DNA of 64,000 nucleotides from a bacterium (GTDB taxonomy: Bacteria > UBA10199 > JADFYH01): NCBI GenBank assembly GCA_046346885.1, contig JAXMHI010000003.1, forward strand, positions 93 through 64,092, read 5' to 3'. Of the stretch, positions 15,399 through 59,319 are shown one piece after another. The notes beneath the pieces were generated by a model. That model was not told the origin of the DNA. It made no database searches and saw only the letters and a list, made by a program, of their open reading frames with translations. Each line of letters opens with the position of its first letter. Position 1 is the stretch's first letter. The position numbers were made by a program, and so were the translations under genes.

Positions 15399-15420
15399 GG
15401 ATTATCTTGTGCACTCGAAT

Positions 15421-15498: not shown

Positions 15499-15514
15499 TG
15501 GCATCCATGTTGCT
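15499..15514 (+). promoter_or_regulatory. sigma54 (-24/-12) promoter for 15563..16000
   Basis: TGGCATccatgTTGCT with exact consensus spacing, about 50 nt upstream of the ATG. Confidence 0.65.
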
Positions 15515-18503: not shown

Positions 18504-19016
18504 TTACATCTGCGGATCGGAAAGCGTCGCTTTCAAGGTCTTGAGCATTTGCGGATCGGAAAGCACCGTCTGCAAGGCCTTGATCATTTGGGGATCGGAA
18601 GCGGCCATCGTCTTCACCACGTTGTACATCTTCTCGTCGGCGAGCAGGGTGTTCACCGCGGTATCCTTGTCCATCTGGGGATCCGAAGAAGCGAACTCTT
18701 CTCCCTTGATCATCTGGGGATCGGAGGCCGTCAACATTTGAGGATCGGACGCGACGAGCATTTGAGGATCGGAAGAAACGGCGTTGGCCTTGATCATTTG
18801 GGGATCCGATTCCACCGTCTTTTCCAAGGGCAACATCTGAGGATCGGAATAAGCCCGCACCGCCTTATTCATTTGGGGATCCGAAAAGAATTGATTGAGC
18901 GCGCCGTAGAGAGTCGGTTTCGCCGCCCGAACCGTCGCTTGTCCTGAGAAGGCTTTTCCTTGGGCTCCCACCGTCGCAACCACTAAAGCTACTGCAACTA
19001 ACCACTTCCTGACCAT
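18504..19016 (-). CDS. Secreted repeat protein with 10 copies of the pentapeptide SDPQM (170 aa from the internal ATG)
   Basis: Signal peptide MVRKWLVAVALVVATVGAQG. An AAAAGGAGAAG RBS precedes the ATG at 19016. SDPQM recurs 10 times and the protein ends exactly in ...LSDPQM*. Confidence 0.8.
   Translation of the reverse strand: MVRKWLVAVALVVATVGAQGKAFSGQATVRAAKPTLYGALNQFFSDPQMNKAVRAYSDPQMLPLEKTVESDPQMIKANAVSSDPQMLVASDPQMLTASDPQMIKGEEFASSDPQMDKDTAVNTLLADEKMYNVVKTMAASDPQMIKALQTVLSDPQMLKTLKATLSDPQM
18507..18884 (-). repeat. Coding repeat: 15-nt unit TC(N)GATCC(N)CA(R)ATG, 10 copies, irregularly spaced
   Basis: On the plus strand, CAT(C/T)TG(C/A/G)GGATC(C/G)GA recurs 10 times between 18507 and 18884. 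Confidence 0.85.
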
Positions 19017-19069
19017 TTTACTTCTCCTTTTAACAAGGGTTATCAAAATCAACTGCTCCCCATTGCATA

Positions 19070-19085
19070 AGCAAATAATTTGCCA
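19070..19085 (-). promoter_or_regulatory. sigma54 (-24/-12) promoter for the SDPQM repeat gene
   Basis: The minus strand reads TGGCAAattatTTGCT with exact consensus spacing, about 55 nt upstream of the ATG at 19016. Confidence 0.65.
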
Positions 19086-19331
19086 AAACTTTTATTTTTA
19101 AAAAATGATATATTTTAATTAGTTATGAGTTTTTTGGAGAAAAGGGAAAGGGGAGTGAGTTCCCCATGGTAGGAGGGCAAGATTTGTTCCAAAATGTTAA
19201 TAAATAAATAATATTATATAGTTAAGTTGTTTTTTGTTCACAATTGAGCAAAAATGAAAATGATGGGCATACACCCCATTTTGAGATATCTTTTTGTAAA
19301 AAGTGAAAGATTTAAAGAGGTTGAGAGAGGA

Positions 19332-23138: not shown

Positions 23139-23228
23139 AAGAAAAAAAGGGAAATGCCTGAAAAATAAAAAATTATTCGATTGCCCTTCCTCTTCGGCAA
23201 CGCTTAAGAGAAGGTGCGAGGAAATTTT

Positions 23229-24370
<1,142 letters not shown>

Positions 24371-46611: not shown

Positions 46612-49600
46612 CTATTTTTTTCCCATTCTTTCCTCAATATAAGCTTTCATCTCCATTCGACTCGTGGGCACACCGTGTTTTGTCATCTGGGTATAGAGAT
46701 AGCGTCGAGAAATTCCTAAATTTTTGGCGGCGAACCCCTTGTGATAACCGTTGTCGTAAAGGGCTTTGAGCAGCAGGCGTTTTTCTTCCGGCAAAGCGGA
46801 GGAGGGAGCGGTGATGAAGGGGGTTTTTTCTTCCTTCTTGGGGACACCAAACGGAACTTTCGCGCCTCCCCCGAAAAGCACCTTCTTGAAATGGAAAGAC
46901 TTGGGGATGATCTTACCCTTCTGGTGAAAGAGGGAAGCGGTGCGCAGCGTATTTTCCAACTCCCTTACGTTCCCCGGCCAGGGGTAATCCATTAAAAGTT
47001 CGAAGGACTCCGGCGCCATCTCGTAGGGTTCGCGTTTTTCTTCCTTCGCCGACTTCTTCAAGAAATGTTGGGCGAGCAGGGGAAGGTCTTCCAGCCGTTC
47101 CCGCAAGGGGGGCAAAACGACCGTTACGCCGTTTAAACGGTAAAATAAATCCTCCCGAAATTTTTTCTCGGCGATGAGGGCCTGCAGGTCTTGGTTGGAA
47201 GCGGAAACCACGCGCACATCCACCCGGATCACCTCATTGGAGCCGAGCGGACGGATTTCCCCCTCTTGAAGGAAGCGCAAGAGCTTGGCCTGCATGGCCC
47301 CGCTCATGTCGGCGATTTCGTCCAAAAAAATCGTGCCGCCGTTCGCGTATTCGAGGAGTCCTTTCTTGTCGCGGTCCGCATGGGTAAAGGAGCCGCGTTT
47401 GTGGCCGAAGAGCTCCGATTCCAAAAGGGTCTCGGGCAAGGCCGAGCAGTTCTCGCTGACGAAGGGTTTTTTCGCCCGGGAACTGTTGAAGTGCAGCACC
47501 CGAGCGATCATCTCTTTTCCCGTGCCCGATTCTCCGTAGATCCAAACGGGCACCTTCGTTTCGATGAGCCGGTCCACCAGCGACAGCACTTCGAGCATGG
47601 CGGGCGATTGGCCGACGATGTCTTTATATTGATGGATGAGTTTCTGCCGCTGGTCCTCCACTTCCCGTTTCAGGGCGATCATCTCGGAGGCCTGCACTTC
47701 CACGGCCCGGCTTAAACTTTCGTTGGCCTTTTCCAGTTCTTCGATCATCTGGGCTTTTTGAAGACCCAAGGCCGCCTGATCGGCGAACATTTGAAGGAGA
47801 TTCAAGTCGGCTCCCCGAAAAAGCCCCGTTTCGTAGCGGTGGTCCAAATACAAGGCGCCGAGGATTCCTTTCGTGCCTTTCAGCGGAAGGGCGAGGATCG
47901 ATTTCAACTCCAGTTGATGCACGCTGGGCGCCGCTTCGAAGCGCCGGTCTTGCAAGGCGTTGTCGGTCACCACCGCCTCGCCCGTCTTCATCGCCTCGCG
48001 GACGGAGGATAAGCTCAACGTGAAATCCTGGCTTTCCAGAAGCTCCTTCGCCACGTTGCGGGCCGCTTTCACCTCGAAACCGGGGAGGGGCCCCCGCGAA
48101 TTTTCGCTTCGGATCACGAGAAACCCCCGTTCGGCGTTCGAAAGTCCCATTGCAGCGTCCATGAGGCGGATTAAGACCTCGTCTAAGTTTGTGGAGCTTA
48201 AGATTTCTCTCGTGAGAGCGGTAAGCTTTTGCAAGGCGTCCATGTTTTTTCTCCCGGAGCTCCCCATTGAAAGAGGGGACGACGTTTTCTCCGTTCCTAA
48301 AATATATTTCTGGTAATCCGCCCGTTCCTCGAAAGAGATTTTAAAGGGATCGGGAAGAGTTTGGTAAGTTTCCGTTAAAAGGGTTTGAAGGGTAGGGGAG
48401 TCTTTTTCCAAAAAAGCCCTCAAAAGTCGTTGCTCCAAGTCCCAAGGTTCGGCGGGTCTCTTTTCGTCGAAGGAAAAAGGAATCCGGGGAAGGCGGGAGA
48501 GAAAATCGTCTCCTTCCTTGATGAGGTCTATTTGAAACCTTATTTCCTTTCGCCGTTGCGTAAAGGCCGGATCTTCCGTTTTTTGCGCCAAGGCTTCGCT
48601 GAAAGCTTGTTCCGATCTTTTGAAGCGCCCTATCGAGGCTTCCGCCAAGGCCAGTTGGAGAAGATTCAACCCCCTTTCGAAGGCATTTCCCAAGAAGGCG
48701 AAGATCTCACGGGCCTTCTCCAATTCCTCCAAGGCTAAATGGAAATTCGCCCTGCGGCAGGCCATGACTCCGATGTTTTGATGGACGCGGGCCAGCGAAA
48801 CGTCGTCCCGGTGTTCGAAAGCGACCTGCAGAGCCCGGGCGTAGGCATGGTCCATCGCCTCCATTTTTCCCAACTTTAAAGCTAAGTTTCCGCGTTCGAG
48901 GGCGATCGAAAAAAGACCCTTATGATTTTGAAGCGATTGAAAGATTTTTTCAGAGGTCTCCAGAAAACCTAAGGCGCCTTCCCAGTCTTTCCTCTGAACC
49001 GCCAAAAGGGCCTCGTATTGCAGTACCTCCGCTTGGGGCGCGCTTTCTTCAGGAAGAAGTGCGAGGGCCGCGGCGAAATGTTCTTGAGCGGATGAAAGCG
49101 CCTCGTTCTCCAGATCCAAACGTCCGAGTAAGGCATGGGCGCGGGCGAGAAAAGGGCGGTGGGATTCGCTTTGAGGGGCTCCCGCCTTCAAACACTCTTC
49201 CCATCGTCGCCGGGCTTCTTTCCCGTTTCCCATATTTTGGTGAAGTACACCGGTAATTTGCCAATACTTTATCGGGTTGAGCCTCAAAGGATCCGTGGGA
49301 AATTTCTCGAACCACTGTTCCAAAGTATTTAAGGCCTGCGAAAAAAGTCCGAGCCGACCATAGGCGTTGGCGATGAGGCGCAAGAGCATTTCCTGACCCG
49401 TCCACTCCTCGGTGAGGGAAAAACACTTTTCATAGAGTGCGATGGCGGAAGGATCTTCCTCGCGGAGGGTGTAAACATCGCCCGCCCGCAATGCCCAAGA
49501 GAGCCGCTGGGGATGATGCGGAACTCGTACGGCGTGATGGGCCAAGGCCAGACAAAGATCGGGAGGGAGATCTTGATTCGCCGGGATTTCTTTTTCCAGA

Positions 49601-51369
49601 AGGCGGAGCCACGCTTCGTGCGGAACCTCCGGGGGAACGGGGGAGCTTTGCAAGACCCTTTCCGCCTGAGGGGGGTGGGCGAAGCAATAGACTTCGCGTT
49701 CTCCCTCAAAATCCGTCCGGATGAAGCTTAAATGGCGAAGGGCTTGTAGCTTTTCACGGAGTTCCGCCGGCTTAAGACCCGTGAGGATCAGTAATTCTTC
49801 GAAAGCGGCACCCTGGAATGCGGCGGCCAAGAAGGCGAGGATCTTTTTTTCTTTCTCGCCCTGCCGACTCCACCGGTCCTCAAAGAGCTCTTCCGAAGTC
49901 TTGGAGAGGCCGATTCGTCGCAGCTCTGAGACGGTAAAGCGTTTCTTTTTTAAAATTCCGGAAAGTTGAATTCCGCGCGCCAGATCCGTGATCACCTGCG
50001 GATTTCCTTGGGAAAGCGCTTGGAGTTCTTGAAGTGCTTCGGGCGGGAACTCGCGGTTCAAAAGAGCCTTGAAGAGCAGGCCGGTGTTTCGAACGTCGAG
50101 ATTTTCGAGCTTGAGGTCGAGGACATGGGGCTGCCTCGCCAAATATAAGAAAGAACCCAACTGCGTAGGCTCTATTTTTTCGTCGTTGTATTCTAAGACG
50201 ACGGAGCCGGAAGGTTTCGAAGAGGAACGCAGAAACCGATACAGTTCTTCCCGATGGCTGGGTTTTAAGGTTTCGGCGGATGGAATCATGCGGACTTCCC
50301 CCTCCGCAAAACCTTCCAGGATTTCTTTCTTCGCGTGAGGGGGATGTTTCGTGGCCCGGGTTCCTTGAAGCGAAAGTTGGAAAAATAGCTCGCGCAAGAA
50401 ACGGCTTTTTCCCGTCCCCGTCAAACCGTGGAGCAACACGATGGCCCGCTGATTTTCCAGCCTTGTTTTTTGAAGGAAGTTGAAGAAATCCTCCCACTTT
50501 TTCTCCACTCCGAACATTTGAAAGGAATGGAGGACGTTTGCCTTGCTTTCCTCTTCGTTTTCCTCCTTCTCTTGCCGCAACGCCTCCCGGGCGTCCTTTG
50601 CCGATTGAAGACGTGAGGAAAGATCCGGTGCGATCATCCGTTCCACCACTCGAGCGGCTGTGGGAGACAGAGGGGGGCATAATTTTTTAAGGCTTTGGAC
50701 CTCGGAAGAGAACAAACCCTTTAGGTCTTTCGCGTCGCCGCGGGGGTGTCGCCCGGTAAAGGCTTGGTAGAAAACGGTGCCCAACGAGAAAAGATCGCTC
50801 GCCGGCAAACGCTCGCCGTCCATCGCTTCGGGGGCCATATAGGGAAGGGTTCCCCGGGGTTGGGAGGGAAGAGGGGAGGTGAAATGGTGCGAGACGGTGG
50901 CCAAGCCGAAATCCACCAATTTGAGACGCCCCTTTTCATCGATCAAGAGGTTCCCGGGTTTCAAATCCCCGTGAAGAACGCCTTGTCCGTGAAGATATTC
51001 CAGCGCATCCAAGGCTTCTTCCAGCCAGCGAACCATCGTTCGGGGCTCCGCGGAGGAAGCCGCGTCCAAGATCGGAGCTCCGGGTATGTACTCCATCCAA
51101 AAGCTCGGTTTTTTTTCCCTTGAGGAAGAAGGTTCCAACCCCTTCATCTCTTCACTTGTTTTCGAGAACCCCATGATTTCCACAAGCCCCGGATGTTTGA
51201 GTTTGGAAAGAAGATGAACCTCGCCCTCGAACAAAGGGAGCAGGGTGGGGGAAGAATTTTCTAAAATTTTTAAGGCGAAGACTTTTCCTTGCCCATCATA
51301 AGCCCGATAGACGGAACCCATGGCCCCCGACCCAACCAGTCGGTCCACTGTGAGAATGTCTTGAGACAT
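46612..51369 (-). CDS. Intact 1585-aa fusion regulator (EBP2): Ser/Thr kinase, P-loop NTPase, TPR-like repeats, GAF, sigma54-interaction AAA+ domain, Fis-type HTH
   Basis: Kinase motifs GSGAMGSV, FALKIL, HGDLKPGN, DFGLA and GTLPYMAPE. Walker A GLTGTGKS. GAF region. AAA+ motifs GESGTGKE, GSFTHA (47377..47394), IFLDEI and WPGNVRELEN. HTH FAAKNLGISRRYLYTQM. Confidence 0.9.
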   Translation of the reverse strand: MSQDILTVDRLVGSGAMGSVYRAYDGQGKVFALKILENSSPTLLPLFEGEVHLLSKLKHPGLVEIMGFSKTSEEMKGLEPSSSREKKPSFWMEYIPGAPILDAASSAEPRTMVRWLEEALDALEYLHGQGVLHGDLKPGNLLIDEKGRLKLVDFGLATVSHHFTSPLPSQPRGTLPYMAPEAMDGERLPASDLFSLGTVFYQAFTGRHPRGDAKDLKGLFSSEVQSLKKLCPPLSPTAARVVERMIAPDLSSRLQSAKDAREALRQEKEENEEESKANVLHSFQMFGVEKKWEDFFNFLQKTRLENQRAIVLLHGLTGTGKSRFLRELFFQLSLQGTRATKHPPHAKKEILEGFAEGEVRMIPSAETLKPSHREELYRFLRSSSKPSGSVVLEYNDEKIEPTQLGSFLYLARQPHVLDLKLENLDVRNTGLLFKALLNREFPPEALQELQALSQGNPQVITDLARGIQLSGILKKKRFTVSELRRIGLSKTSEELFEDRWSRQGEKEKKILAFLAAAFQGAAFEELLILTGLKPAELREKLQALRHLSFIRTDFEGEREVYCFAHPPQAERVLQSSPVPPEVPHEAWLRLLEKEIPANQDLPPDLCLALAHHAVRVPHHPQRLSWALRAGDVYTLREEDPSAIALYEKCFSLTEEWTGQEMLLRLIANAYGRLGLFSQALNTLEQWFEKFPTDPLRLNPIKYWQITGVLHQNMGNGKEARRRWEECLKAGAPQSESHRPFLARAHALLGRLDLENEALSSAQEHFAAALALLPEESAPQAEVLQYEALLAVQRKDWEGALGFLETSEKIFQSLQNHKGLFSIALERGNLALKLGKMEAMDHAYARALQVAFEHRDDVSLARVHQNIGVMACRRANFHLALEELEKAREIFAFLGNAFERGLNLLQLALAEASIGRFKRSEQAFSEALAQKTEDPAFTQRRKEIRFQIDLIKEGDDFLSRLPRIPFSFDEKRPAEPWDLEQRLLRAFLEKDSPTLQTLLTETYQTLPDPFKISFEERADYQKYILGTEKTSSPLSMGSSGRKNMDALQKLTALTREILSSTNLDEVLIRLMDAAMGLSNAERGFLVIRSENSRGPLPGFEVKAARNVAKELLESQDFTLSLSSVREAMKTGEAVVTDNALQDRRFEAAPSVHQLELKSILALPLKGTKGILGALYLDHRYETGLFRGADLNLLQMFADQAALGLQKAQMIEELEKANESLSRAVEVQASEMIALKREVEDQRQKLIHQYKDIVGQSPAMLEVLSLVDRLIETKVPVWIYGESGTGKEMIARVLHFNSSRAKKPFVSENCSALPETLLESELFGHKRGSFTHADRDKKGLLEYANGGTIFLDEIADMSGAMQAKLLRFLQEGEIRPLGSNEVIRVDVRVVSASNQDLQALIAEKKFREDLFYRLNGVTVVLPPLRERLEDLPLLAQHFLKKSAKEEKREPYEMAPESFELLMDYPWPGNVRELENTLRTASLFHQKGKIIPKSFHFKKVLFGGGAKVPFGVPKKEEKTPFITAPSSALPEEKRLLLKALYDNGYHKGFAAKNLGISRRYLYTQMTKHGVPTSRMEMKAYIEERMGKK

Positions 51370-51406
51370 GGGGTTATTTTAGTGGGAATAGGATAGGGAG
51401 TCCATC

Positions 51407-51422
51407 ATTCACATTTTGTGAT
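51407..51422. promoter_or_regulatory. Palindromic box ATTCACATTTTGTGAT upstream of EBP2 (candidate operator or autoregulatory site)
   Basis: TCACA-N3-TGTGA, 38-53 nt upstream of the ATG at 51369. The same 16-mer occurs at 56502..56517. Confidence 0.4.
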
Positions 51423-51468: not shown

Positions 51469-52962
51469 TTAAGGTATTAAGAGAGGTTCCGAGAAAATTA
51501 GAGCCCGAACGAAGAGTTGAGATTTCATCGCGCAGTCGATATCTTCATTCGACAATTCCATGGCGCCGTCGGGACCGATTTTCTGAAGGGCTAGTTGGCA
51601 TCGCGAACGGTCCGAGTCTTCTTTGCCCAAGTTCAAAAATTCAAGTTCGGGATCGTGGAGAAGAAAAACAAAGAGCCCTTTTTTAATCGAGAGATTGGGG
51701 AAGGAAATGTTTTTTTCCGAACGAGGGTCGGAGGCGGGGTCGAGGGGGAATTCCCAAACCTTTGCGGGGCCGAATCCCCTGTCTTTGAGGGCGCCGGCGG
51801 GAAGCGACAATAAAGAGTTCATCGCGCTATAGAGATGGTCTTGCCGTGAAAGGCTTCTTGCCTCCAATGCCGGCGCTTTCTCGAAATAGACGACGCGCAT
51901 TTTAAGAATTTTTCCCGCTTCCACGGGTCGGTATTCGTCGACCTCTTTTTGCTCGTTCCAAAAAACTTTCTTGAGCAAGGCCTCCGAAAATTTCGCATTG
52001 GAAGGGTTGAAGGGCAAGACCACGTCGCCGTCCTTGAATGCGCCGTCTCCGACGAAACTAACGAGATAGGGGATTCGGTCCGATCCCGCCTTTCCCACAT
52101 CGGGAATGGAACCTAGAATGCCGCCTTGCCCGTTATGGGCCACTTCTCCGGGGCCGACCTCTTTTTTCATCATCCGGACGCTGCTGGTCCCTCCGCCGGC
52201 ACCTCCGACGTTGGAGGAGACCCCGCCGCCTGCGCCGGGCGAGACCGTCGCGTTGGAACCGCCGCTCGGCGTTCCGCTTGCGCCTTTGTCTTTTCCGCCT
52301 TGCGCGTTCGTCGCGTTTTCTTTTCCGGAATCCGGTTGAACCTTTAGAGACACCGAAACTCCCGAGTTCACGACGGGAGAAACGGCCGGAATTCCCGAGG
52401 ATTTGTTTAAAACTTGCACTTCCGCCTTCTGTGGATTGACGGGCGTGGGAGTCGCCGCGGAGTGGACGGGTGCCGTCGAAGGAGGTGAATTATTTTGGGA
52501 AGTCAGGAGGAGATTGGAGCCCTTTACCGGTTCTTGAGAAGTAAGGGGCGTTTCTCCCGCTCCTCCTATTTGCAAAGGAGGCGCCCCATTTTTAAGGGCG
52601 ATCACCTCGTTGTCGGCTGAAGGTTGAACATTATTTGTCTGATAACGGAGAGGGACCGTGGGAACCTTATATAAAACGGTGGGGGGTGGCCGATCCGAGC
52701 TGGAAGGGGTTGGCGCATCGAGGGGGGCGGAAGAATCCTCTTTTTTGATTTCTAATGGAGAGGCCTTCGTTTTCTTTTCTTCCAATAAAACCGTTTTAGA
52801 TTTTCGCGGAGTTTCCAACGAGGTTTTAATCGCTTGGGTCGCCGGAAGGGATTTGTTGGAAGGAGGGGTTTCCCCTTGAGAAGGGGACTTCTGCCCGCAA
52901 CCTACCACCAGGCAGGCGGCCAAAAGAGAAACCGAAAAAAAAGTGAAAAACCTTCGAAACAT
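51469..52962 (-). CDS. Lipoprotein with a long Pro/Ser/Gly-rich low-complexity region (497 aa)
   Basis: Internal ATG at 52962. MFRRFFTFFSVSLLAACLVVGC carries a lipobox. Confidence 0.7.
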   Translation of the reverse strand: MFRRFFTFFSVSLLAACLVVGCGQKSPSQGETPPSNKSLPATQAIKTSLETPRKSKTVLLEEKKTKASPLEIKKEDSSAPLDAPTPSSSDRPPPTVLYKVPTVPLRYQTNNVQPSADNEVIALKNGAPPLQIGGAGETPLTSQEPVKGSNLLLTSQNNSPPSTAPVHSAATPTPVNPQKAEVQVLNKSSGIPAVSPVVNSGVSVSLKVQPDSGKENATNAQGGKDKGASGTPSGGSNATVSPGAGGGVSSNVGGAGGGTSSVRMMKKEVGPGEVAHNGQGGILGSIPDVGKAGSDRIPYLVSFVGDGAFKDGDVVLPFNPSNAKFSEALLKKVFWNEQKEVDEYRPVEAGKILKMRVVYFEKAPALEARSLSRQDHLYSAMNSLLSLPAGALKDRGFGPAKVWEFPLDPASDPRSEKNISFPNLSIKKGLFVFLLHDPELEFLNLGKEDSDRSRCQLALQKIGPDGAMELSNEDIDCAMKSQLFVRALIFSEPLLIP

Positions 52963-53043
52963 GTCCCCCCTTTTTAACTTATTATACCGTGTTTCACCCA
53001 TCTCTATTATCCGTTTTTTGTCGCATCAAGTTTCGTTTTTTAA

Positions 53044-53080
53044 AGAAAAACTCAATCCCCCTCCCAGCACGGGAGGGGGA
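53044..53080 (-). terminator. Hairpin terminator after 53102..54901
   Basis: TCCCCCTCCC-loop-GGGAGGGGGA, with a T-rich tract downstream on the minus strand. Confidence 0.5.
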
Positions 53081-53101
53081 AGTCGCTGATGCGGGAGATC
53101 C

Positions 53102-54901
53102 CTATTCCACCTCAACCTTGGGATCGGGATCCTCGTGCCACACTTCTTGGCGTTCGGGGAGATTCGGAAAGTCCGCGCCCAGCACGTACTTCGTCTCCGA
53201 CCAAGCTTTCTTTGCGGAATTATTCACCTGGCTGGGTAAGGCCCCCTTGATCTTGATTTTCTTGGCATCCCCCGTGATGAAATAAGTGACCGTCTTTTTG
53301 GGGTCGCCGTTTTTCAAGACTTCCACCTTGTAACGCCCCTTTTCATCCTTTGTTACGTTCACCACGTCTCGAAAACTCGACGCAAAAATCGTAACTTCTC
53401 CGGAGGTGAAAATGTCGTGTTCCCGTACGGTGAGGGGGTCGTCGAAATAGGTGTGGAGGCTGACGTTCGTTGAATCCTGGCCGTTCGAGCCGTCATAGAT
53501 GGCCACGTCGTTTTCCAAGGCGTCCGGGATATTATCGTCCTTTGATTGAGGATTGACCGGCGCATCGGGACCTCCTGCTCCCTTACCGTTCGAATCTCCT
53601 ACGACATCCACCTTCGTGGCGCCCGGTTTCGAAGGATCGAGCTCATGGGAGGGATTCGATTTTTCCGGCGCCGGAACACCGGTAGGAGGCGTCGTCGAAG
53701 GTGCCGTCGATCCTGCTCCTGCGGGAGCGGAAGGAGAAGTGGCGGAGGTTCCGAAGACGGCTTTTTTAGCGACCGCATCGGGTGCACGCCCTTTCCCGGA
53801 AAGAGAAGGGGGGGTGCCTTTCGAAAGGTTGCCGAAATCGATTCGGCTTTTGTCGCCGGCGAAGTGGAGTTTTTTCACTAAGGCACCGTCGATGTCGATC
53901 GTTTCCTTTACCTTGTTGTTTTTGTAATCCTCGTCGTTCGCGTACACCTTCAACACATATTTCGAGGGAGGACCTTTCTCGTAATCCATCCGGAAATATT
54001 CGTCGTTCGACGTGGGGGTGATCGTCACCTCGCCGTTCGCCTTCACGCGGGTTTTTTTGCCGCTGCCGCTCGGAACGGGGGAGATGTCGAAATCTTTACC
54101 GTCATACACGCGGGTGTTTCCTTCCATTTTAGTGGGAGGATCTCCTTGCGGAGTTGTGGCGGATGTCTCGTCCGTCAAGTTTCCGAAATTCACTTTTTGG
54201 GAGAGAGGGCTTGAAGCGAGAGCCGTATCTGGGGTGAAGGGCTTTGAGTCTCCATCCGGCGTGAGAATCCGAATGTTGCTCGTCTCCTTGAAATCATGCT
54301 TTACGAATACGCGGCGACTGCCGTCGGGCAGGTTCACCGTGATTTTCAGCATCTTGGCGGGGGCGGGGAGAGAATCGTCCGCCAAAAGCTCCAACTGGCC
54401 GTTCGCATGAAAGGGAATGCGCAGGGTGAGATCGTCTTGAAAGAAATCTTTCTCGCGCGAATCGCCGTCGTGAAGTCGTACGGTCACGTCGGCGCCGTCG
54501 GTCCCGTCGTATTTTATCCGGGTGTTATCGCCCCAAATCACTTCTCCCGTTTGGTCCATCGGAGCATTTCCCATTCCGAGACCGCCCCCCATAAGACCTC
54601 CCAGGGGATCCCAAGAGGAAGAATCGTCGCCCATTTGCTGAAGATACTGATGGGCCGTGGCGAGATAAGAGTCGATCGTGGCCAAAGCTTGGGGGTCATT
54701 CAAGTGGGTCTGTCGGTAAGAGAGCAGCATCGCCTCGTAGCGGTGCATGTATTGGATGTACGCTTGGGTGGAGTCCCCCGAGCCGTACGAGGCATCGTAG
54801 CGGCCGTAAGAAGGTGCTGTGCCTGCGTATCCGGCGGTGTCGTAAGGATTCATTCCATAATCGGGAGCTGGATTCGAAACGGATGCTGAAACGGAACTCA
54901 T
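53102..54901 (-). CDS. Hypothetical 599-aa protein with no signal peptide and three apparent 85-aa beta-rich repeats
   Basis: AGGAGG RBS. The modules start IKYDGTDG, RVYDGKDF and AIYDGSNG. Each is followed by (A/S)xG(Q/E)(L/V)x(L/I) and a Lys-rich strand pair. Confidence 0.75.
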   Translation of the reverse strand: MSSVSASVSNPAPDYGMNPYDTAGYAGTAPSYGRYDASYGSGDSTQAYIQYMHRYEAMLLSYRQTHLNDPQALATIDSYLATAHQYLQQMGDDSSSWDPLGGLMGGGLGMGNAPMDQTGEVIWGDNTRIKYDGTDGADVTVRLHDGDSREKDFFQDDLTLRIPFHANGQLELLADDSLPAPAKMLKITVNLPDGSRRVFVKHDFKETSNIRILTPDGDSKPFTPDTALASSPLSQKVNFGNLTDETSATTPQGDPPTKMEGNTRVYDGKDFDISPVPSGSGKKTRVKANGEVTITPTSNDEYFRMDYEKGPPSKYVLKVYANDEDYKNNKVKETIDIDGALVKKLHFAGDKSRIDFGNLSKGTPPSLSGKGRAPDAVAKKAVFGTSATSPSAPAGAGSTAPSTTPPTGVPAPEKSNPSHELDPSKPGATKVDVVGDSNGKGAGGPDAPVNPQSKDDNIPDALENDVAIYDGSNGQDSTNVSLHTYFDDPLTVREHDIFTSGEVTIFASSFRDVVNVTKDEKGRYKVEVLKNGDPKKTVTYFITGDAKKIKIKGALPSQVNNSAKKAWSETKYVLGADFPNLPERQEVWHEDPDPKVEVE

Positions 54902-54940
54902 GATTTTATCCTCCTAAAATTTAGTTGATCCTTCGGGAGT

Positions 54941-54976
54941 CTTTAAAAACGTCCCGCGAAAATTCGCGGGACGTTT
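54941..54976 (-). terminator. Hairpin between 55002..56336 and 53102..54901 (terminator or attenuator)
   Basis: AAACGTCCCGCG-AATTTT-CGCGGGACGTTT followed by TTTAAAG on the minus strand. Confidence 0.55.
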
Positions 54977-55001
54977 CAGGGTAAGGGTGGGTTTAAGGTT
55001 T

Positions 55002-56336
55002 TTAAAAAAGATCCTTGATGTCTTTCCAAGCCTCTTTCGCCGCGTCTTTGGCGACGCTGATCATGGCGCCGTCTTGAGCTCCCTCATAGGCGCCGACGGG
55101 GCCGCCCAGGACGAAGCCGGTGACGGCGCCTTCCCAGCCGGCGTCAACGGCCGCGGATACGGTTTTTTTGAAAGTGCTTCGGTTGTCGTCATCTTCCGTC
55201 GGGTATTTGGCTTCGTTCATCCAGGAAGGTTTGTCGACTCCATGCGGAATCACCGCCTTGGGCAACTCCGTTTGCGGCCAGCCCGGCTCCTTGCTGAATT
55301 GGATTTGTCCCGTGGAGTTATTGACGACGTTGGAAGAGGATTGCCCCATCGTCACCACGCCCGGGTTGTTGTCGTCCGCCGTCGCCTTTGTGCCGTACAG
55401 GACCGTGAGAATTTTGGCCGTCTCTCCCGCCAACTGCGAACGGGCGTTCATTAGGGCCTTTCCGGCAGGGCCCTTGCCTTGGGTTTCGTCGTAGAGTTTT
55501 TTGAAGGAGGGACACACTTCCTTTTCCGGATCGTCGCTCTTTGCCTTGTCGTTGTATTTTTCACATTCGTCCTTGAGCTTGCCGGTCGCTTCGTCAAACT
55601 TCGCCGAGGCCGATTTCACTTCGTCCCTCATCTGCGTCAAGTTTTCGAAGGCGGGATCGTTTAAAAGCGCCGCCACTTGGGCATTGGGAGGTTGGGGGAG
55701 ATTCGCAGGGTCGAGATCGTATTTCTTGAAAAGGTCGACGATTTCTTCGTGAGAAAGGCCCGTCGTTTCTTCCATTTTTTTAACCGTCGAAGGTTTTGTG
55801 TTCGCGGCGTTTACTTTTTCTTGGAAGGTCTTGAATTGTTCCTGCACGTCCTTTCGGTTCGGATGGAGCTCCATCTGGTGAAGAAGCTTTCGCCCCTCCG
55901 ATTGAAAAGCCTCTTTCTCTTCTTCGTCCAAGTTTTTCATGCCTTCGATCTCTGAGATAAACTGTTCGGCGCTGTCTTGAAAAACACCGTCACGCTCCCC
56001 GCTTTCCAGGCTCTCCGCTTGGAGCGCATAAATTTTCCCCGCCAAGGCTTGGGGTAGAGGACCTTTTTGGTGGCCGATCTCCGCCAGAAGTTTCGGGACT
56101 TCGCGATTTTGAGGGGCTGAAGATTGAAGATCCTTCAATAAACTTCTTGCGTCTTCGTAGGTGAGAGGTACGGTGCCTCCGATTTTTTTCGAATCGCCTT
56201 GCGAATATCGGTCTTGCGAATCTCCGTCCTCAATATCGTTCAAGAAGTCTCCGTCTAACTCCCCAATATCCTCCATTTCCCAGTCGTCGTTTTGGGGTTG
56301 TGATCGGTATTGATTTCCATTCACGGCATTCGTCAT
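55002..56336 (-). CDS. Hypothetical acidic 444-aa protein, no signal peptide, Gly-zipper-like C-terminus
   Basis: Internal ATG at 56336 with a GGAGAGG RBS. The N-terminus is Asp/Glu-rich. The C-terminus is AVDAGWEGAVTGFVLGGPVGAYEGAQDGAM. Confidence 0.75.
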   Translation of the reverse strand: MTNAVNGNQYRSQPQNDDWEMEDIGELDGDFLNDIEDGDSQDRYSQGDSKKIGGTVPLTYEDARSLLKDLQSSAPQNREVPKLLAEIGHQKGPLPQALAGKIYALQAESLESGERDGVFQDSAEQFISEIEGMKNLDEEEKEAFQSEGRKLLHQMELHPNRKDVQEQFKTFQEKVNAANTKPSTVKKMEETTGLSHEEIVDLFKKYDLDPANLPQPPNAQVAALLNDPAFENLTQMRDEVKSASAKFDEATGKLKDECEKYNDKAKSDDPEKEVCPSFKKLYDETQGKGPAGKALMNARSQLAGETAKILTVLYGTKATADDNNPGVVTMGQSSSNVVNNSTGQIQFSKEPGWPQTELPKAVIPHGVDKPSWMNEAKYPTEDDDNRSTFKKTVSAAVDAGWEGAVTGFVLGGPVGAYEGAQDGAMISVAKDAAKEAWKDIKDLF

Positions 56337-56390: not shown

Positions 56391-56406
56391 AGCAAGCGGA
56401 ATGCCA
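56391..56406 (-). promoter_or_regulatory. sigma54 (-24/-12) promoter for 55002..56336 (and possibly 53102..54901)
   Basis: The minus strand reads TGGCATtccgcTTGCT with exact consensus spacing, about 55 nt upstream of the ATG at 56336. Confidence 0.7.
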
Positions 56407-56501
56407 TTATTTAATTATTTGAAATTATTATATTTTTTAAATTTTAGAAAAAAAAGAGGAAATGGTGAATTGAGTACAATGGGAAGTTATTTGATCTGAT
56501 A

Positions 56502-56517
56502 ATTCACATTTTGTGAT
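56502..56517. promoter_or_regulatory. Candidate UAS palindrome ATTCACATTTTGTGAT
   Basis: TCACA-N3-TGTGA centred about 105 nt upstream of the sigma54 -24 element at 56391..56406. It overlaps the last codons of the PHP gene. Confidence 0.45.
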
Positions 56518-57358
56518 TTTGTCGATGGGCAGCGTTTCGAAGCTTTTCCAAGGCTTCTACCGGCATCGGCAAGCTGCCTAAGGCCGAATTTTTTTCTCCC
56601 TTCAGCCCGTGAAAGTCCGATCCGCCCGTTACGAGGAGGCCGTTTTCTTTAGCCCAATAGGCGAAGGCTTGCATTTGGGATTTTTTGTGGTTGGGGTGGT
56701 AAGCCTCGATGGCGGGTAATCCCTCGTTCTTGAGAAGATCCGGAATCGATTTGTTGCGCAGTAAGCCGGGATGGGCGAGAGAAGCAATGCCGCCGCAATT
56801 TTTAATTTTTTGAAGGACGGAAGAAGCCTCCGGAAAGGCACGCGGCACGTAACCGGAGTTGCCGGGCGAAAGGTAAAGGCGGAACGCCTCCTTCATGTTA
56901 GGCGCGTAGCCTAAGCGAACCAATGCCTGGGCCACGTGGGGACGGCCCGGCGTACGGGTGTCGATTAAAGTCGCTTCCACGTCCTTTTTTTCGATCAACA
57001 CGCCGTGCTCGTTCAGCCGGGCGATCATCGCATCGAGGCGCGTCAATCGGTCTCTCCTTTGTTCTTCGAGAAAATTTAAAAATTCGGCGTTACGCCAATC
57101 GATGAAATAGGCGAGCAGGTGAACTTCTTCTTCCCCCCATCGGGAGGAGATCTCGATGCCGGGGATCCATTCAATGCCCGCTTCTTCGCAGAAGAGTTGA
57201 ATTTGCGGAAGACCTTCCACGGTGTCGTGGTCGGTGACGCTTAAGACGTCGACTTTTCTTTTTTTCGCCAAAGAAACCAATTTTTCAGGGGACAGGCGCC
57301 CGTCGGAGAAGCTCGTGTGGCTATGAAGGTCGATTTTCACAAGGCTTCGGTTCTCCAA
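56504..57358 (-). CDS. PHP-domain metal-dependent phosphoesterase (TrpH/YciV-like)
   Basis: IDLHSHTSFSDG, VLSVTDHDT and GGSDFHG motifs. Confidence 0.85.
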   Translation of the reverse strand: MENRSLVKIDLHSHTSFSDGRLSPEKLVSLAKKRKVDVLSVTDHDTVEGLPQIQLFCEEAGIEWIPGIEISSRWGEEEVHLLAYFIDWRNAEFLNFLEEQRRDRLTRLDAMIARLNEHGVLIEKKDVEATLIDTRTPGRPHVAQALVRLGYAPNMKEAFRLYLSPGNSGYVPRAFPEASSVLQKIKNCGGIASLAHPGLLRNKSIPDLLKNEGLPAIEAYHPNHKKSQMQAFAYWAKENGLLVTGGSDFHGLKGEKNSALGSLPMPVEALEKLRNAAHRQNHKM

Positions 57359-59319
57359 TTAATTTTATTGCCTTGCCAGAAGAAAACAAGCCGTTGCCCA
57401 CGGCGCCGGGTCTGCGGATCCGTCGCGTTCGGCATTTCAATGATGATGTTCTTTCCTTGGGGCAGGGGGTGCCGCGAACTTTGAAGCCACTTGGCATAAT
57501 TTTCGGGGTGGAGATGGGAGCCCGTGTAAATGACGGGGTTCCATTGGTTGTTTTCCAGTCTTTTCTGCATGTGTTCGAAGACTTGTATGACGGTGGAAGC
57601 GGGAGCAACCTCTTCTTGTGCGGGCGACGGAGGAGGGACGGGTGGCCGTGCTCCAGGGCCGGCATCTGGGGCCGGTGTTCGAATTTCTATTTTCGCTCGA
57701 TTCACTTGAATGGTGGATCGGTCAGCTTGCGTCCTTTCGAAGAGAAAGGCGGTGTTGGGTCCGATCAGCGCGACACAAAGGACGACGTTTGCTGGAATGC
57801 TGTTATTTTGCAAAAAACGGGTCACATCGATGCGGATTTGAACAATTTGTTGATTCTCCAAGTTGGAACCGGAAGAGGCATGGGCCACTACCACCGGAGA
57901 GCCAGGATTTTCCCGAAGGTGTTCCTCAAAAGCCCGAAGAATGACTTGGGTTGCGGTCGACGAGGTACTGATGACGGCCTTAAGCTGGGTATGGGGAGGC
58001 ACTCCTTCGATTTGTGCGGTGGTGCCGTCTTTCAGCTCGACGGAAAAGACGGGAGTTCCGGGTTGTGACGGGCCTTGAATCGTGGAGAGCGATTGCCGGG
58101 TTTTAGCCAACCAAGCGGCGCTCGTGTCGGCATCGAGTCCGGTGCTTTCGAAAGGGATGATGGTCATGCCTATTTCTGATCTTCGCGGAGAGAGAGCATA
58201 GGCTGTTTTACGGGCTCTGAAAGCGAGACCAATCACGGTTCCTTCAGGAAGGCGGCCGCTTTTTTGTTGTTCAGCGAGCATTCTGCGAATCCCGTCGGTG
58301 AGTGACTGTCTTTCCGCCGCATTACAATTCTCCATCTTGAAATGGATCAGCATGGGGCGTTGGGAGCGGCTCTTTAAACCTTGTTCGACCCGTGCGTGCA
58401 GGCTCTGGATAGCCTCTTGCGAGTCCTCCTCCAACGTAAGGATTTCCGCGTTTCTGAAGATGTCTTGATAGTAGCGGGATCCCCCCCCGGCGGGGTTTTC
58501 AGAGGACATGGCCACTATGAAAGGCTTTTGCGGTTCTAAGGTGTCGTGGGGAAGAAAAGGGATCGCCTCCGTATCCGGGCGGGACGACGCGCCTGCGAAA
58601 GCCCTTTCCGGTCCGGTGAATTCGGAGAGAGCAAAAGAGTGAGGGGGAACTCCGAAAGGTTGGCGACCGTGAGTTTGTAGGGAGAGATCGAGGTTTCGTT
58701 CTAAGAGTTCCATTGTCGGGGCCGCGGTTCCGACCAATCCCATTCCCGCCGCCAGTTGTAGGTTCGTCACTTCCGCGTGAAGCAGTTGTTCCGCGAGGCT
58801 CCCCTCCGGAGCCGGCGTCCATCCGAGCTGCCCCGTCGCTTGATGGCCGGCGACCATCGCCGCATCTTGAAACGCGTGTCGCACCAGCACGTTTTGGCCG
58901 GCCGCGAAGGCTCCGCCCATTTTCAGAAGGCCGAATTGGACGAACGAGGTGCGCCAACGCTCCCAGTAGGAACGCCCGGCCCGCGACTGTTCGGGCGACA
59001 ATAAATCGTTCACCCCTTGAAAGGCCGTCACTTCGGAGGCCAGTCCGATTCCATAAGAAGCGACCTGGAGCAGGGGCGCCGCTTGTTGAGCCCTCGACGC
59101 CAAAGCCAAGACGCCCAGGCGCCCGAAGCGGTAGAAGAGAGAACCGGTCGCCATGGCGGCCAACGTTCGAAAGTTGCCCGCCTCCTCCGTAAAGCTCGAA
59201 ACCGCCGAATCCACTTGTCTTTGAAATGCAGACAAAGGTTCGCTTTGGGACAGTTCGAAATTGGAGAATCGATGAAGAACGCTCGAAGACAAATCGGAGT
59301 TCATGGAATTAAAATACAT
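57337..59319 (-). CDS. Family copy P4: N-terminal module plus an unrecognised 440-aa C-terminal region (660 aa)
   Basis: FRTLAAMATGSLFYRFGRLG, WERWRTSFVQFGLLKMGG, GQNVLVRHAFQDAAMVAG and PEGSLAEQLLHAEVTNLQL. The 3' end overlaps the PHP gene start by 22 nt. Confidence 0.85.
   Translation of the reverse strand: MYFNSMNSDLSSSVLHRFSNFELSQSEPLSAFQRQVDSAVSSFTEEAGNFRTLAAMATGSLFYRFGRLGVLALASRAQQAAPLLQVASYGIGLASEVTAFQGVNDLLSPEQSRAGRSYWERWRTSFVQFGLLKMGGAFAAGQNVLVRHAFQDAAMVAGHQATGQLGWTPAPEGSLAEQLLHAEVTNLQLAAGMGLVGTAAPTMELLERNLDLSLQTHGRQPFGVPPHSFALSEFTGPERAFAGASSRPDTEAIPFLPHDTLEPQKPFIVAMSSENPAGGGSRYYQDIFRNAEILTLEEDSQEAIQSLHARVEQGLKSRSQRPMLIHFKMENCNAAERQSLTDGIRRMLAEQQKSGRLPEGTVIGLAFRARKTAYALSPRRSEIGMTIIPFESTGLDADTSAAWLAKTRQSLSTIQGPSQPGTPVFSVELKDGTTAQIEGVPPHTQLKAVISTSSTATQVILRAFEEHLRENPGSPVVVAHASSGSNLENQQIVQIRIDVTRFLQNNSIPANVVLCVALIGPNTAFLFERTQADRSTIQVNRAKIEIRTPAPDAGPGARPPVPPPSPAQEEVAPASTVIQVFEHMQKRLENNQWNPVIYTGSHLHPENYAKWLQSSRHPLPQGKNIIIEMPNATDPQTRRRGQRLVFFWQGNKINWRTEAL

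What the first reader, a model, noticed from the sequence alone, without database searches (positions are those of the whole stretch)
56502..56517. ACA-N3-TGT palindromes positioned 70-110 nt upstream of the sigma54 promoters and in front of the regulator gene: candidate activator binding sites
The identical 16-mer ATTCACATTTTGTGAT occurs at 56502..56517, about 105 nt upstream of promoter 56391, and at 51407..51422, 38-53 nt upstream of the EBP2 start codon. Related boxes are TATACATTTTGTAA at 15421..15434 (72 nt upstream of promoter 15499) and TTTACAATTTGTAT at 15092..15105 (93 nt upstream of promoter 15191). A one-mismatch box, CCAAAATGT at 19189..19197, lies about 109 nt upstream of promoter 19070. 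Promoter 10385 has only a half-site, ACATTT, at 10486..10491. This is the classical UAS distance for bacterial enhancer-binding proteins, and the site before EBP2 would fit autoregulation. Caveat: the degenerate core is expected about twice per 64 kb by chance, more often in AT-rich spacers, and I could not exhaustively scan the coding DNA by eye.
Basis: partly seen in the sequence, partly recalled or inferred. Interest (0 to 1): 0.6.

Follow-up and report, generated by a model that had tools for sequence, protein, structure and literature searches.

The report
Enhancer boxes for kinase-fused sigma-54 activators
The short ACA-N3-TGT palindromes are real and very probably the DNA docking sites from which an unusual kinase-fused activator protein switches on sigma-54 promoters in an uncultivated wastewater bacterium; this is a classical mechanism, but the motif and the regulator family have not been described.

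Summary

- **The sites.** The 16-mer ATTCACATTTTGTGAT occurs exactly twice (0.02 expected). ACAWWWTGT occurs five times, four of them in AT-rich spacers (0.07-0.17 expected). An independent short-read assembly of the same sample reads identically at these sites.
- **Independent test.** I used 25 non-redundant sigma-54 promoters next to homologous kinase-fused activator genes in other metagenomes. Among 832 gapped palindromes, ACA-N3-TGT was by far the most enriched (16 found, 0.46 expected).
- **Position.** Box centres sit at helically phased distances from the -24 element (about 71, 82, 92, 103 and 125 nt). The window's boxes, at 71, 92 and 104, fall on the same register.
- **Control.** Loci with other activator types have no such box.
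- **Refinements.**
  - The conserved unit is a half-site, TTGTG(A/C) or TGTAA. It can be inverted, everted or tandem.
  - The boxes belong to the EBP2 type. EBP1 orthologues carry a different motif, ATTCAAAT.
  - The box before EBP2 abuts a sigma-70-like -35 element, and that layout is conserved in relatives.
  - The box at 19189 is out of register. The half-site at 10486 has no comparative support.

This is a new member of a known kind. No binding or expression data exist.

The parts
56502..56517 (.). UAS box ATTCACATTTTGTGAT (TCACA-N3-TGTGA). Its centre is 104 nt upstream of the T of TGGCA of P56391. It overlaps the stop codon of the PHP-domain ORF 56504..57358(-).
56391..56406 (-). Sigma-54 promoter TGGCATTCCGCTTGCT. 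It drives the operon 56336->51469.
56411..56427 (-). Conserved A/T-rich motif AATTTCAAATAATTAAA, which resembles the IHF consensus. TTCAA starts 17 nt upstream of TGGCA.
51469..56336 (-). Target operon of three orphan genes (444, 599 and 510 aa). The 510-aa product has a lipoprotein-like signal. None has a Pfam or NCBIfam family.
51407..51422 (.). Second copy of the identical 16-mer. It ends 2 nt upstream of the -35 of the EBP2 promoter and lies 38-53 nt before the EBP2 start codon. It is a candidate autoregulatory site.
51376..51404 (-). Sigma-70-like promoter of EBP2: TGGACT, 17-nt spacer, TAAAAT. The -10 ends 6 nt before the ATG, so the mRNA may be leaderless.
46612..51369 (-). EBP2, 1585 aa: Ser/Thr kinase, STAND/AAA_16, TPR, GAF, sigma-54 AAA+ and a Fis-type HTH. 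The recognition helix reads LGISRRYLYTQM. The L1 loop is GSFTHA.
15092..15105 (.). UAS box TTTACAATTTGTAT. Its centre is 92 nt upstream of P15191.
15117..15125 (.). Weak half-box ACAACCCGC at register 70 of P15191. This is my reading of the sequence and was not tested statistically.
15191..15206 (+). Sigma-54 promoter TGGCATTTCCATTGCT.
15218..15399 (+). Candidate sigma-54-dependent small RNA of about 180 nt. It ends in an intrinsic terminator (15359-15399) and has a CCCUCCUCA stretch just 5' of that terminator.
15402..15412 (.). Half-box TCTTGTGC at register 93 of P15499. This is my reading of the sequence.
15421..15434 (.). UAS box TATACATTTTGTAA. Its centre is 71 nt upstream of P15499.
15499..15514 (+). 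Sigma-54 promoter TGGCATCCATGTTGCT. It drives the 145-aa orphan gene 15563..16000.
19189..19197 (.). One-mismatch box (ACATTTTGG on the minus strand), 108 nt upstream of P19085. It is off the register and its role is doubtful.
19070..19085 (-). Sigma-54 promoter TGGCAAATTATTTGCT. It drives the secreted SDPQM-repeat protein 18504..19019.
10385..10400 (-). Sigma-54 promoter TGGCATTCGGCCTGCA, divergent from EBP1. The CTGCA -12 element is conserved in EBP1-orthologue loci. It has no ACA-N3-TGT box.
10492..10510 (-). ATTCAAATTTAAATTCAAT, 100-106 nt upstream of P10400. It is a candidate EBP1-type UAS of a different motif class.
10550..15078 (+). EBP1, with the same architecture plus two tandem Fis-type HTH motifs. 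The window breaks it with frameshifts that are assembly errors. It is one intact ORF in the short-read contig L053.

Best explanation
The ACA-N3-TGT boxes are upstream activator sequences (enhancers) for the EBP2-type regulator. EBP2 is a 1585-aa sigma-54 activator with an N-terminal Ser/Thr kinase, a STAND NTPase, TPR repeats, a GAF domain, an AAA+ domain and a Fis-type HTH.

**Proposed mechanism (inferred).**
1. The C-terminal Fis-like HTH docks on half-sites TTGTG(A/C) or TGTAA. In this genome they are paired as a compact inverted repeat, TCACA-N3-TGTGA or TACA-N3-TGTA.
2. The boxes sit on one face of the helix, 71, 92 or 104 nt upstream of the -24 element.
3. An A/T-rich, IHF-consensus-like element directly upstream of -24 helps the DNA bend.
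4. The AAA+ ring contacts sigma-54 holoenzyme and opens the promoter. The kinase, STAND, TPR and GAF modules gate this step.

**Targets in the window.**
- An orphan three-gene operon (P56391).
- A small RNA (P15191).
- A 145-aa orphan gene (P15499).

**The copy at 51407.** It abuts the -35 of a sigma-70-like promoter of the EBP2 gene. This gives autoregulation of unknown sign. No terminator separates the operon from EBP2, so read-through from P56391 could add positive feedback.

**Shown here:** sequence presence, enrichment, phasing, conservation and linkage to the regulator gene.
**Inferred:** binding by EBP2, activation and autoregulation.
For: **In the window**
- The exact 16-mer occurs twice.
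- Four boxes lie in 1.26 kb of spacers against 0.07 expected.

**In relatives only**
- ACA-N3-TGT ranks first of 832 gapped palindromes in the -40..-220 zones of 25 non-redundant promoters: 16 observed against 0.46 expected, z = 22.

**In window plus relatives (family loci)**
- Density is 3.68 per kb in those zones against 0.051 per kb in the other 196 kb.
- The top 5-mers are CACAA/TTGTG, GCACA and TCACA.

**Phasing**
- Box centres in relatives cluster at 71, 81-83, 90-93, 103 and 124-125 nt.
- Rayleigh R is 0.88 at a 10.7-bp period, p about 1e-5, and 0 of 20000 random sets reach it.
- The window boxes fall within 1.4 bp of that phase.

**Linkage to the regulator**
- In many contigs the boxes lie in the spacer between the regulator gene and a divergent sigma-54 promoter.
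- The HTH recognition helix is identical in EBP2 and its closest relatives. It differs by Y to N and Q to K in the clade whose boxes read ACAnnnTGTGC.
- A TGT(G/A)AA half-site sits 3-4 nt before the -35 of the regulator gene in W, L012, L032, L054 and L056.

**Controls**
- 29 loci with other activators have 0 boxes in 2979 bp of equivalent zones.
- EBP1 orthologues have none and share another motif.

**Precedent**
- The GAF-type activator NorR uses three compact GT-N7-AC sites (PMC2831303).
- The nearest solved DNA-binding domain is the Fis-like domain of Aquifex NtrC4.
Against: - There are no binding, expression or transcription-start data. The only public runs found are DNA.
- Only 3 of the 5 window promoters carry a perfect box. 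P19085 has an off-register one-mismatch box and P10400 has none.
- In the hold-out set of four closer relatives (L054-L057), none of the 6 sigma-54 promoters has a perfect ACA-N3-TGT box in its zone. Across all clade-A loci, 10 of 17 promoters lack even a TGTGA(A/T) half-site.
- The P15191 and P15499 boxes read TACA rather than TCACA. An unseen paralogue elsewhere in the genome could bind them.
- A 9-13 bp dyad is short for a standard HTH dimer.
- EBP2 has GSFTHA in place of the canonical GAFTGA loop.
- Some promoter sets from relatives are orthologous and so not fully independent.
Confidence: 0.75

Rival explanations
1. The boxes are real cis-regulatory sites, but a different protein binds them. 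It could be another EBP paralogue with a similar Fis-type HTH encoded outside the window, or an accessory factor. It could bind all the boxes or only the TACA-type boxes at 15092 and 15421.
For: - The TACA-type boxes differ from the 16-mer at 4 of 15 positions.
- Genomes of this group carry several such regulators. The window has two, and L057 also carries an FHA-type activator.
- Only 64 kb of a 275-kb contig was seen.
Against: - Across many contigs the boxes track the EBP2-type gene itself.
- Next to the -35 of EBP2-orthologue genes, TGTAAA replaces TGTGAA in L032 and L054. This suggests the same protein tolerates G or A at that position.
- EBP1, the only other candidate in the window, has its own motif.
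Confidence: 0.15
2. The boxes are sites for a CRP/FNR-type or other global regulator that recognises TGTGA/TCACA. They would modulate the sigma-54 promoters rather than serve as the activator's own enhancer.
For: - The half-site TGTGA is the CRP half-site (from my own knowledge).
- L056 has TGTGA-N7-TCACA and TGTGA-N11-TCACA arrangements.
Against: - The window sites have the opposite orientation and spacing, TCACA-N3-TGTGA, not TGTGA-N6-TCACA.
- No N6 arrangement was seen.
- The sites sit at enhancer distances, are phased with -24, and occur only in loci of this regulator family.
Confidence: 0.04
3. The boxes are chance palindromes in AT-rich spacers, or remnants of a short duplicated sequence, and have no function.
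For:
- A fifth copy lies inside a coding region at 57842.
Against: - Shuffles of the spacers themselves never reach the observed count.
- Similarity between the two 16-mer sites does not extend beyond about 19 nt.
- The independent enrichment, phasing and control results from relatives cannot be explained by chance.
Confidence: 0.03

Closest known systems
NorR enhancer sites (GT-N7-AC, three copies) at norVW / hmp promoters
   Same: - NorR is a GAF-AAA+-HTH sigma-54 activator.
- It uses compact 11-bp inverted repeats in multiple copies upstream of a -24/-12 promoter, together with an IHF site (PMC2831303).
- The window core CA-N7-TG has the same span.
- NorR is among the best NCBIfam matches for the GAF-AAA+ part (299 bits).
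   Different: - The bases and arm orientation differ.
- EBP2 scores below the NorR cut-off of 476 bits and carries about 1050 extra N-terminal residues (kinase, STAND, TPR).
- In this window there is one full box per promoter plus a weak half-box, not three.
- Relatives show direct-repeat arrays that are not described for NorR.
NifA UAS (TGT-N10-ACA)
   Same: - NifA is the best-scoring named family for the GAF-AAA+-HTH part of EBP2 (375 bits).
- Its UAS is also built from TGT/ACA triplets and lies about 100 nt upstream of -24/-12 promoters with IHF between them (from my own knowledge).
   Different: - The score is below the NifA cut-off of 529 bits.
- The arms are swapped and the spacer is 3 nt, not 10. 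ACA-N10-TGT and TGT-N11/12-ACA are only weakly enriched.
- There is no nif context.
NtrC / NtrC4 Fis-type DNA-binding domains and their 17-bp dyads
   Same: - The HTH fold class is the same. The nearest solved structures are the Aquifex NtrC4 DNA-binding domain, 2m8g and 4l5e.
- The logic of enhancers placed 80-150 nt upstream is the same.
   Different: - NtrC sites are TGCACC-N5-GGTGCA, with half-sites one helical turn apart (from my own knowledge).
- Here the half-sites are 7-8 bp apart, or arranged as direct repeats.
- EBP2 has no receiver domain.
Kinase-fused sigma-54 activators annotated in MAGs ('sigma 54-interacting transcriptional regulator', 'PknK')
   Same: At least 90 clusters in public data share the Pkinase, AAA_16, TPR, GAF, Sigma54_activat and HTH_8 architecture.
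   Different: They carry only automatic annotation. My literature searches found no described binding motif, regulon or experimental study. The library is incomplete, so this is not proof that none exists.

Membership tests
Upstream activator sequence (enhancer) of a sigma-54 promoter | Lies upstream, roughly 70-150 nt, of a -24/-12 (GG-N10-GC) promoter. | tested here: met
   Box centres are 71, 92 and 104 nt from the T of TGGCA at three promoters that match TGGCAY-N5-TTGCT.
Upstream activator sequence (enhancer) of a sigma-54 promoter | Is enriched at such promoters relative to the rest of the genome. | tested here: met
   - Density is 3.68 per kb against 0.051 per kb.
- It ranks first of 832 palindromes in relatives.
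- Genome-wide data for the source organism were not available.
Upstream activator sequence (enhancer) of a sigma-54 promoter | Its position depends on the face of the helix relative to the promoter. | tested here: met
   - Rayleigh R is 0.88 at 10.7 bp, and 0 of 20000 random sets reach it.
- Paired boxes lie 21-22 bp apart.
- This is a sequence-level test only.
Upstream activator sequence (enhancer) of a sigma-54 promoter | A cognate activator with a DNA-binding domain is encoded nearby, and the site travels with that gene. | tested here: met
   - EBP2 with HTH_8 is adjacent.
- Boxes lie in the spacer next to the orthologous gene in many contigs.
- They are absent from non-family loci.
Upstream activator sequence (enhancer) of a sigma-54 promoter | Dyad symmetry and/or multiple copies that support oligomer assembly. 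| tested here: inconclusive
   - The window has one perfect dyad per promoter plus weak half-boxes in register.
- Relatives have 2-3 boxes or arrays of up to six half-sites.
Upstream activator sequence (enhancer) of a sigma-54 promoter | A DNA-bending element, such as an IHF site, lies between the enhancer and the promoter. | tested here: inconclusive
   - A conserved WTTCAA-N4-TTAA lies 13-17 nt upstream of TGGCA in 14 of 32 promoters, and P15499 matches WATCAANNNNTTR exactly.
- It sits unusually close to -24.
- No IHF gene was seen.
Upstream activator sequence (enhancer) of a sigma-54 promoter | The activator binds it directly and it is needed for transcription. | not testable with these tools
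   This needs EMSA or DAP-seq and reporter assays. No RNA runs hold this sequence.
NifA / NorR equivalogs (NCBIfam) | Whole-protein score above the curated cut-off. | tested here: not met
   NifA scores 375 bits against a cut-off of 529. NorR scores 299 bits against 476.
Canonical sigma-54 activator AAA+ domain | A Sigma54_activat domain with the GAFTGA L1 loop. | tested here: inconclusive
   - The domain matches PF00158 at 1.5e-69.
- The loop is GSFTHA in EBP2 and GAFTHA in clade B. F and T are kept, but the second G is H.
- EBP1 has GAFTGA.

The most novel reading that the evidence does not exclude
The DNA-binding unit of these kinase-fused activators may be a single half-site, TGTGA(A/T), rather than a dimer-type dyad. 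Promoters would recruit the hexamer through freely arranged half-sites on one helical face. The arrangements seen are an inverted pair 3 bp apart in this window, everted pairs, and in L056 six tandem copies at about 11-bp spacing, roughly one per protomer. The same regulator would also drive C-rich small RNAs that look complementary to ribosome-binding sites, placed next to its own gene (window 15218-15399, and L005, L054, L055 and L014). A eukaryote-like kinase/STAND sensor would then control both a sigma-54 regulon of orphan envelope proteins and a post-transcriptional arm.
Probability: 0.3. Interest if true: 0.6.

Novelty: new member of a known kind. Interest (0 to 1): 0.4.

Why it matters
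If the boxes are what they appear to be, they give a usable regulatory code for a widespread but unstudied class of very large sigma-54 activators. These proteins fuse a eukaryote-like Ser/Thr kinase and a STAND/TPR module to the GAF-AAA+-HTH core, and they occur in the UBA10199-like lineage of uncultivated bacteria.

The code has three parts: the half-site, the register of 71/82/92/103/125 nt, and the A/T-rich element next to -24. With it, the regulons of these regulators can be predicted directly from metagenomes. So far those regulons consist of orphan secreted or lipoproteins and small RNAs. The regulator-site pair is also small enough to test in a heterologous host.

It does not change how sigma-54 activation is understood.

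Tried and rejected
- **Orthologues of the target gene.** The 444-aa product of the P56391 operon has no homologue in 5.8 billion proteins. Phylogenetic footprinting of that exact promoter was therefore impossible.
- **Longer repeat or mobile-element boundary.** Similarity between the two 16-mer sites stops after about 19 nt, in both direct and inverted comparison. Rejected.
- **Terminator hairpins.** No terminator-like site occurs at either 16-mer. The stem would be 5 bp with 2 G-C pairs. Rejected.
- **A hidden sigma-54 promoter served by the 51407 box.** I read both strands at 71-104 nt from the box and found none. The relaxed scan also found none.
- **Wider clade-A consensus.** A search for TTYACATTYYRTGAW at up to 3 mismatches gave 32 hits against 22 expected. 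It added nothing convincing.
  - The hit at 62234 has no promoter nearby.
- **Rfam.** There is no family for the candidate small RNA, and no sequence homologue in the fetched loci.
- **EBP1 as a pseudogene.** Rejected. The frameshifts are window assembly errors.
- **Extending beyond the window.** Only 4.4 kb on the left and 0.8 kb on the right could be obtained. Neither holds a new promoter or box.
- **Literature on kinase-fused activators.** Five searches found nothing specific. Perez et al. 2008 (PMC2572974) is not held.
- **Binding motif of EBP1.** Only a tentative ATTCAAAT motif was found, in 4 of 5 orthologous spacers.

Full report
**1. Observation**

- The 16-mer ATTCACATTTTGTGAT occurs exactly twice, at 51407 and 56502. 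There is no further match at up to two mismatches, and 0.02 are expected.
- The degenerate core ACAWWWTGT occurs five times against 0.65 expected.
- Four of the five copies lie in AT-rich intergenic spacers. When only those spacers are shuffled with dinucleotide content preserved, 0.07-0.17 copies are expected, and none of 5000 shuffles reaches four.
- The -24/-12 elements are confirmed. There are four strong ones (15191+, 15499+, 19085-, 56406-) and one with a CTGCA -12 element (10400-).
- The window carries patches of indel errors at 13419-14988 and 62449-63707 relative to short-read contigs of the same wastewater run. Those contigs are identical to the window across all the spacers that hold boxes.

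**2. Context**

EBP2 (46612..51369, minus strand, 1585 aa) has these domains in order: Ser/Thr kinase, AAA_16/STAND, TPR, GAF, Sigma54_activat and HTH_8.

EBP1 (10550..15078) has the same architecture. Its apparent frameshifts are assembly errors. The short-read contig L053 has one intact ORF, which ends in two tandem Fis-type HTH motifs.

The promoters drive the following:
- P56391 drives three orphan genes (444, 599 and 510 aa). The first has no homologue in the whole protein collection.
- P15191 is followed after about 180 nt by a strong intrinsic terminator. There is no credible ORF and no Rfam match, so it probably makes a small RNA.
- P15499 drives a 145-aa orphan gene.
- P19085 drives a secreted protein made of SDPQM repeats.

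**3. Independent test in relatives**

Scans of GTDB genomes and JGI metagenomes with EBP2 returned contigs that encode the same kinase-fused regulator at 35-58% identity. Several are from MAGs labelled UBA10199 or "Deltaproteobacteria". These loci are dense in sigma-54 promoters.

I used only relatives, with no window sequence. For 25 non-redundant promoters I counted all 832 palindromes of the form XYZ-N(0-12)-rc(XYZ) in the zone 40-220 nt upstream.
- ACA-N3-TGT came first by a wide margin: 16 observed against 0.46 expected, z = 22.
- Second was CAA-N1-TTG, which is its inner part.
- Box density is 3.68 per kb in these zones against 0.051 per kb in the remaining 196 kb of family loci.
- The most enriched 5-mers are CACAA/TTGTG, GCACA and TCACA.
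- In 29 control loci that encode other activators or kinases, 19 promoter-like sites have no box in 2979 bp of equivalent zones.

**4. Geometry**

Box centres lie at fixed distances from the T of TGGCA: about 71, 81-83, 90-93, 103 and 124-125 nt.
- The commonest layout is a pair at 71 and 92-93 nt, which is 21-22 bp apart.
- For 15 perfect boxes from relatives, the Rayleigh statistic is 0.88 at a 10.7-bp period, p about 1e-5. No random set out of 20000 reaches it.
- The three perfect window boxes, at 71, 92 and 104 nt, fall within 1.4 bp of the phase set by the relatives.
- P15191 and P15499 each also have a weak half-box at the complementary register, 70 and 93 nt (my reading).
- The one-mismatch box of P19085 is at 108 nt, about 4 bp off the register.
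- Fourteen of 32 promoters, including three in the window, carry WTTCAA-N4-TTAA 13-17 nt upstream of TGGCA. P15499 matches the IHF consensus WATCAANNNNTTR exactly. This could be a bending site, but it sits unusually close to -24.

**5. Which regulator**

Several lines link the boxes to the EBP2 type.
- In relatives the boxes usually lie in the spacer between the regulator gene and a divergent sigma-54 promoter.
- The recognition helix LGISRRYLYTQM is identical in EBP2 and in L004-L007 (clade A).
  - The promoter-bearing clade-A contigs are the window, L012 and L032.
  - Their boxes read TTYACATTYYRTGAW.
- Clade B (L001-3, 8, 10, 11) has LGISRRNLYTKL. Its boxes read ACAnnnTGTGC with G/C in the spacer.
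- EBP1 has a different HTH. Its orthologues (50-67% identity, L058-L061) keep the divergent promoter with the CTGCA -12 element. They have no ACA-N3-TGT box. In 4 of 5 spacers they share ATTCAAAT, 93-118 nt upstream.

The boxes are therefore EBP2-type sites.

**6. Hold-out test and refinement**

I fetched four further clade-A loci (L054-L057, 48-54% identity) after fixing the prediction. They did not show perfect ACA-N3-TGT boxes in their zones. They show the half-site TGTGA(A/T) in various arrangements:
- Six direct copies at 84, 95, 109, 120, 131 and 142 nt (L056 P9736).
- TGTGA-N7-TCACA and TGTGA-N11-TCACA (L056 P18652).
- A single AATTGTGAAC at 95 nt (L055 P2370).

Across all clade-A loci, half-site density is 8.7 per kb in the zones against 0.34 per kb elsewhere. 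Even so, 10 of the 17 clade-A promoters have none, so other activators must serve them.

The conserved recognition unit is therefore the half-site. The neat dyad with an A/T spacer is the form it takes in this genome.

**7. The box in front of EBP2**

The 51407 copy ends 2 nt upstream of the -35 of a sigma-70-like promoter (TGGACT, 17-nt spacer, TAAAAT).
- The same layout, TGT(G/A)AA followed 3-4 nt later by TTGAC, recurs in L012, L032, L054 and L056.
- In L012 and L032 the box centre is 45-50 nt from the start codon, as in the window.
- In those relatives the box also serves a divergent sigma-54 promoter. The window has no such promoter on either strand.
- Autoregulation is therefore the simplest role for this copy. 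Its sign is unknown.
- No terminator lies between the operon and EBP2, so read-through from P56391 is possible.

**8. Comparison with known systems**

The logic is that of classical enhancer-dependent sigma-54 promoters.
- The closest analogue is NorR. It is a GAF-type activator that needs three compact GT-N7-AC dyads plus IHF (PMC2831303).
- NifA is the best-scoring named family for the GAF-AAA+-HTH part, at 375 bits against a cut-off of 529. EBP2 is not an equivalog of any named activator.
- The nearest solved DNA-binding domain is the Fis-like domain of Aquifex NtrC4.
- The kinase-fused architecture is common in metagenomes, with at least 90 clusters, but it is annotated only generically.
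- I found no paper that describes its binding motif or regulon. The library is incomplete.

**9. Verdict**

The finding is a new member of a known kind: a well-supported predicted enhancer motif for an uncharacterised family of sigma-54 activators.

Binding, activation and autoregulation remain inferences.
- I put the probability that these are functional enhancer elements of this promoter class at about 0.85.
- I put the probability that EBP2 itself binds them at about 0.7-0.75.

Interest is moderate, at 0.4.

Noticed in passing
window 13419-14988 and 62449-63707: The window has clustered indel errors relative to short-read (Logan) contigs of the same run. There are 16 gap positions (12 indel events) in EBP1 and 54 gap positions (40 indel events) in the 62298.. 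gene. Both genes are intact in the short-read contigs: L053 has a 1356-aa partial ORF and L052 has a 664-aa gene. Elsewhere the two assemblies are identical. Apparent pseudogenes in this window should not be trusted.
   Followed up: yes
window 15218-15399 (+); L005 ~9854-9940; L054 ~890-970; L055 ~9871-9950; L014 downstream of 1554(-): - These are sigma-54 promoters followed by 45-180 nt and an intrinsic terminator, with no ORF.
- They are candidate activator-dependent small RNAs.
- Each has a C-rich unpaired stretch just 5' of the terminator: CCCUCCUCA in the window, CCCCAACCCUUC in L005 and L055. This could pair with ribosome-binding sites.
- In L005, L054 and L055 the RNA lies directly upstream of the EBP2-orthologue gene.
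- There is no Rfam family. The window RNA has no sequence homologue in the loci.
   Followed up: partly
window 14830-15078 (intact reading in L053:3-4073): EBP1 ends in two tandem Fis-type HTH motifs: ...ALAKSLLHFGFDVKKASEALGCAVSKLYQRMREYGL... and ...LKYCENSPYQAARLLKVSPGMVYQWMRS. This is unusual for a sigma-54 activator.
   Followed up: partly
window 10492-10510; L058, L060, L061 divergent spacers: ATTCAAAT(T) recurs 93-118 nt upstream of the conserved promoter, with its CTGCA -12 element, that is divergent from EBP1 orthologues. It is a candidate EBP1-type enhancer motif, distinct from ACA-N3-TGT. The motif is rare elsewhere in those loci (1-3 copies).
   Followed up: partly
window 15174-15190, 15482-15498, 56411-56427, 10407-10419: A conserved AATTTCAA-N4-TTAA element (IHF-consensus-like) lies 13-17 nt upstream of TGGCA in 14 of 32 family promoters. 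It is unusually close to the -24 element for an IHF site. It might instead be a lineage-specific promoter extension.
   Followed up: partly
L056 ~9820-9880 (upstream of P9736, minus strand): Six direct repeats of (A/G)TGTGA(A/T) lie at 84, 95, 109, 120, 131 and 142 nt from the promoter, mostly 11 bp apart. They sit between a sigma-54 promoter and the EBP2-orthologue gene.
   Followed up: partly
window 47350-47370 region (EBP2 residues ~1326-1331): The sigma-54-contacting L1 loop of EBP2 reads GSFTHA (GAFTHA in clade B) instead of the canonical GAFTGA. The variant is conserved across the family. EBP1 keeps GAFTGA.
   Followed up: no
window 51369-51381: The -10 of the predicted EBP2 promoter ends 6 nt before the ATG, and there is no Shine-Dalgarno sequence. 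The EBP2 mRNA may be leaderless. L012 has the same layout. L056 does not.
   Followed up: partly
window 401-6010(-), 19332-23240(-), 57337-59319(-), 62298-64292(+); L043 1-192: These large orphan proteins form a paralogous family with a shared N-terminal segment of about 60 aa (...SAQxQVDGLVSxFxxEAxDWRSLAAM...). One of them is fused to a Ser/Thr kinase (19332..23240). A homologous N-terminus is the product of the sigma-54 target gene in L043.
   Followed up: partly
window 18504-19019 (-): This secreted protein is made of about 12 repeats of the pentapeptide SDPQM spaced by short linkers. It is under sigma-54 promoter P19085 and has no meaningful family match.
   Followed up: no
window 57842-57850: The fifth ACAATTTGT copy lies inside the coding region of 57337..59319, with no promoter in register. 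It is probably a chance occurrence.
   Followed up: partly
window 19231-19245: CAATTGTGAACA, about 155 nt upstream of P19085, repeats the AATTGTGAAC half-site that L055 has 95 nt upstream of its P2370. This could be the real, more distal site of P19085, rather than the off-register box at 19189.
   Followed up: no
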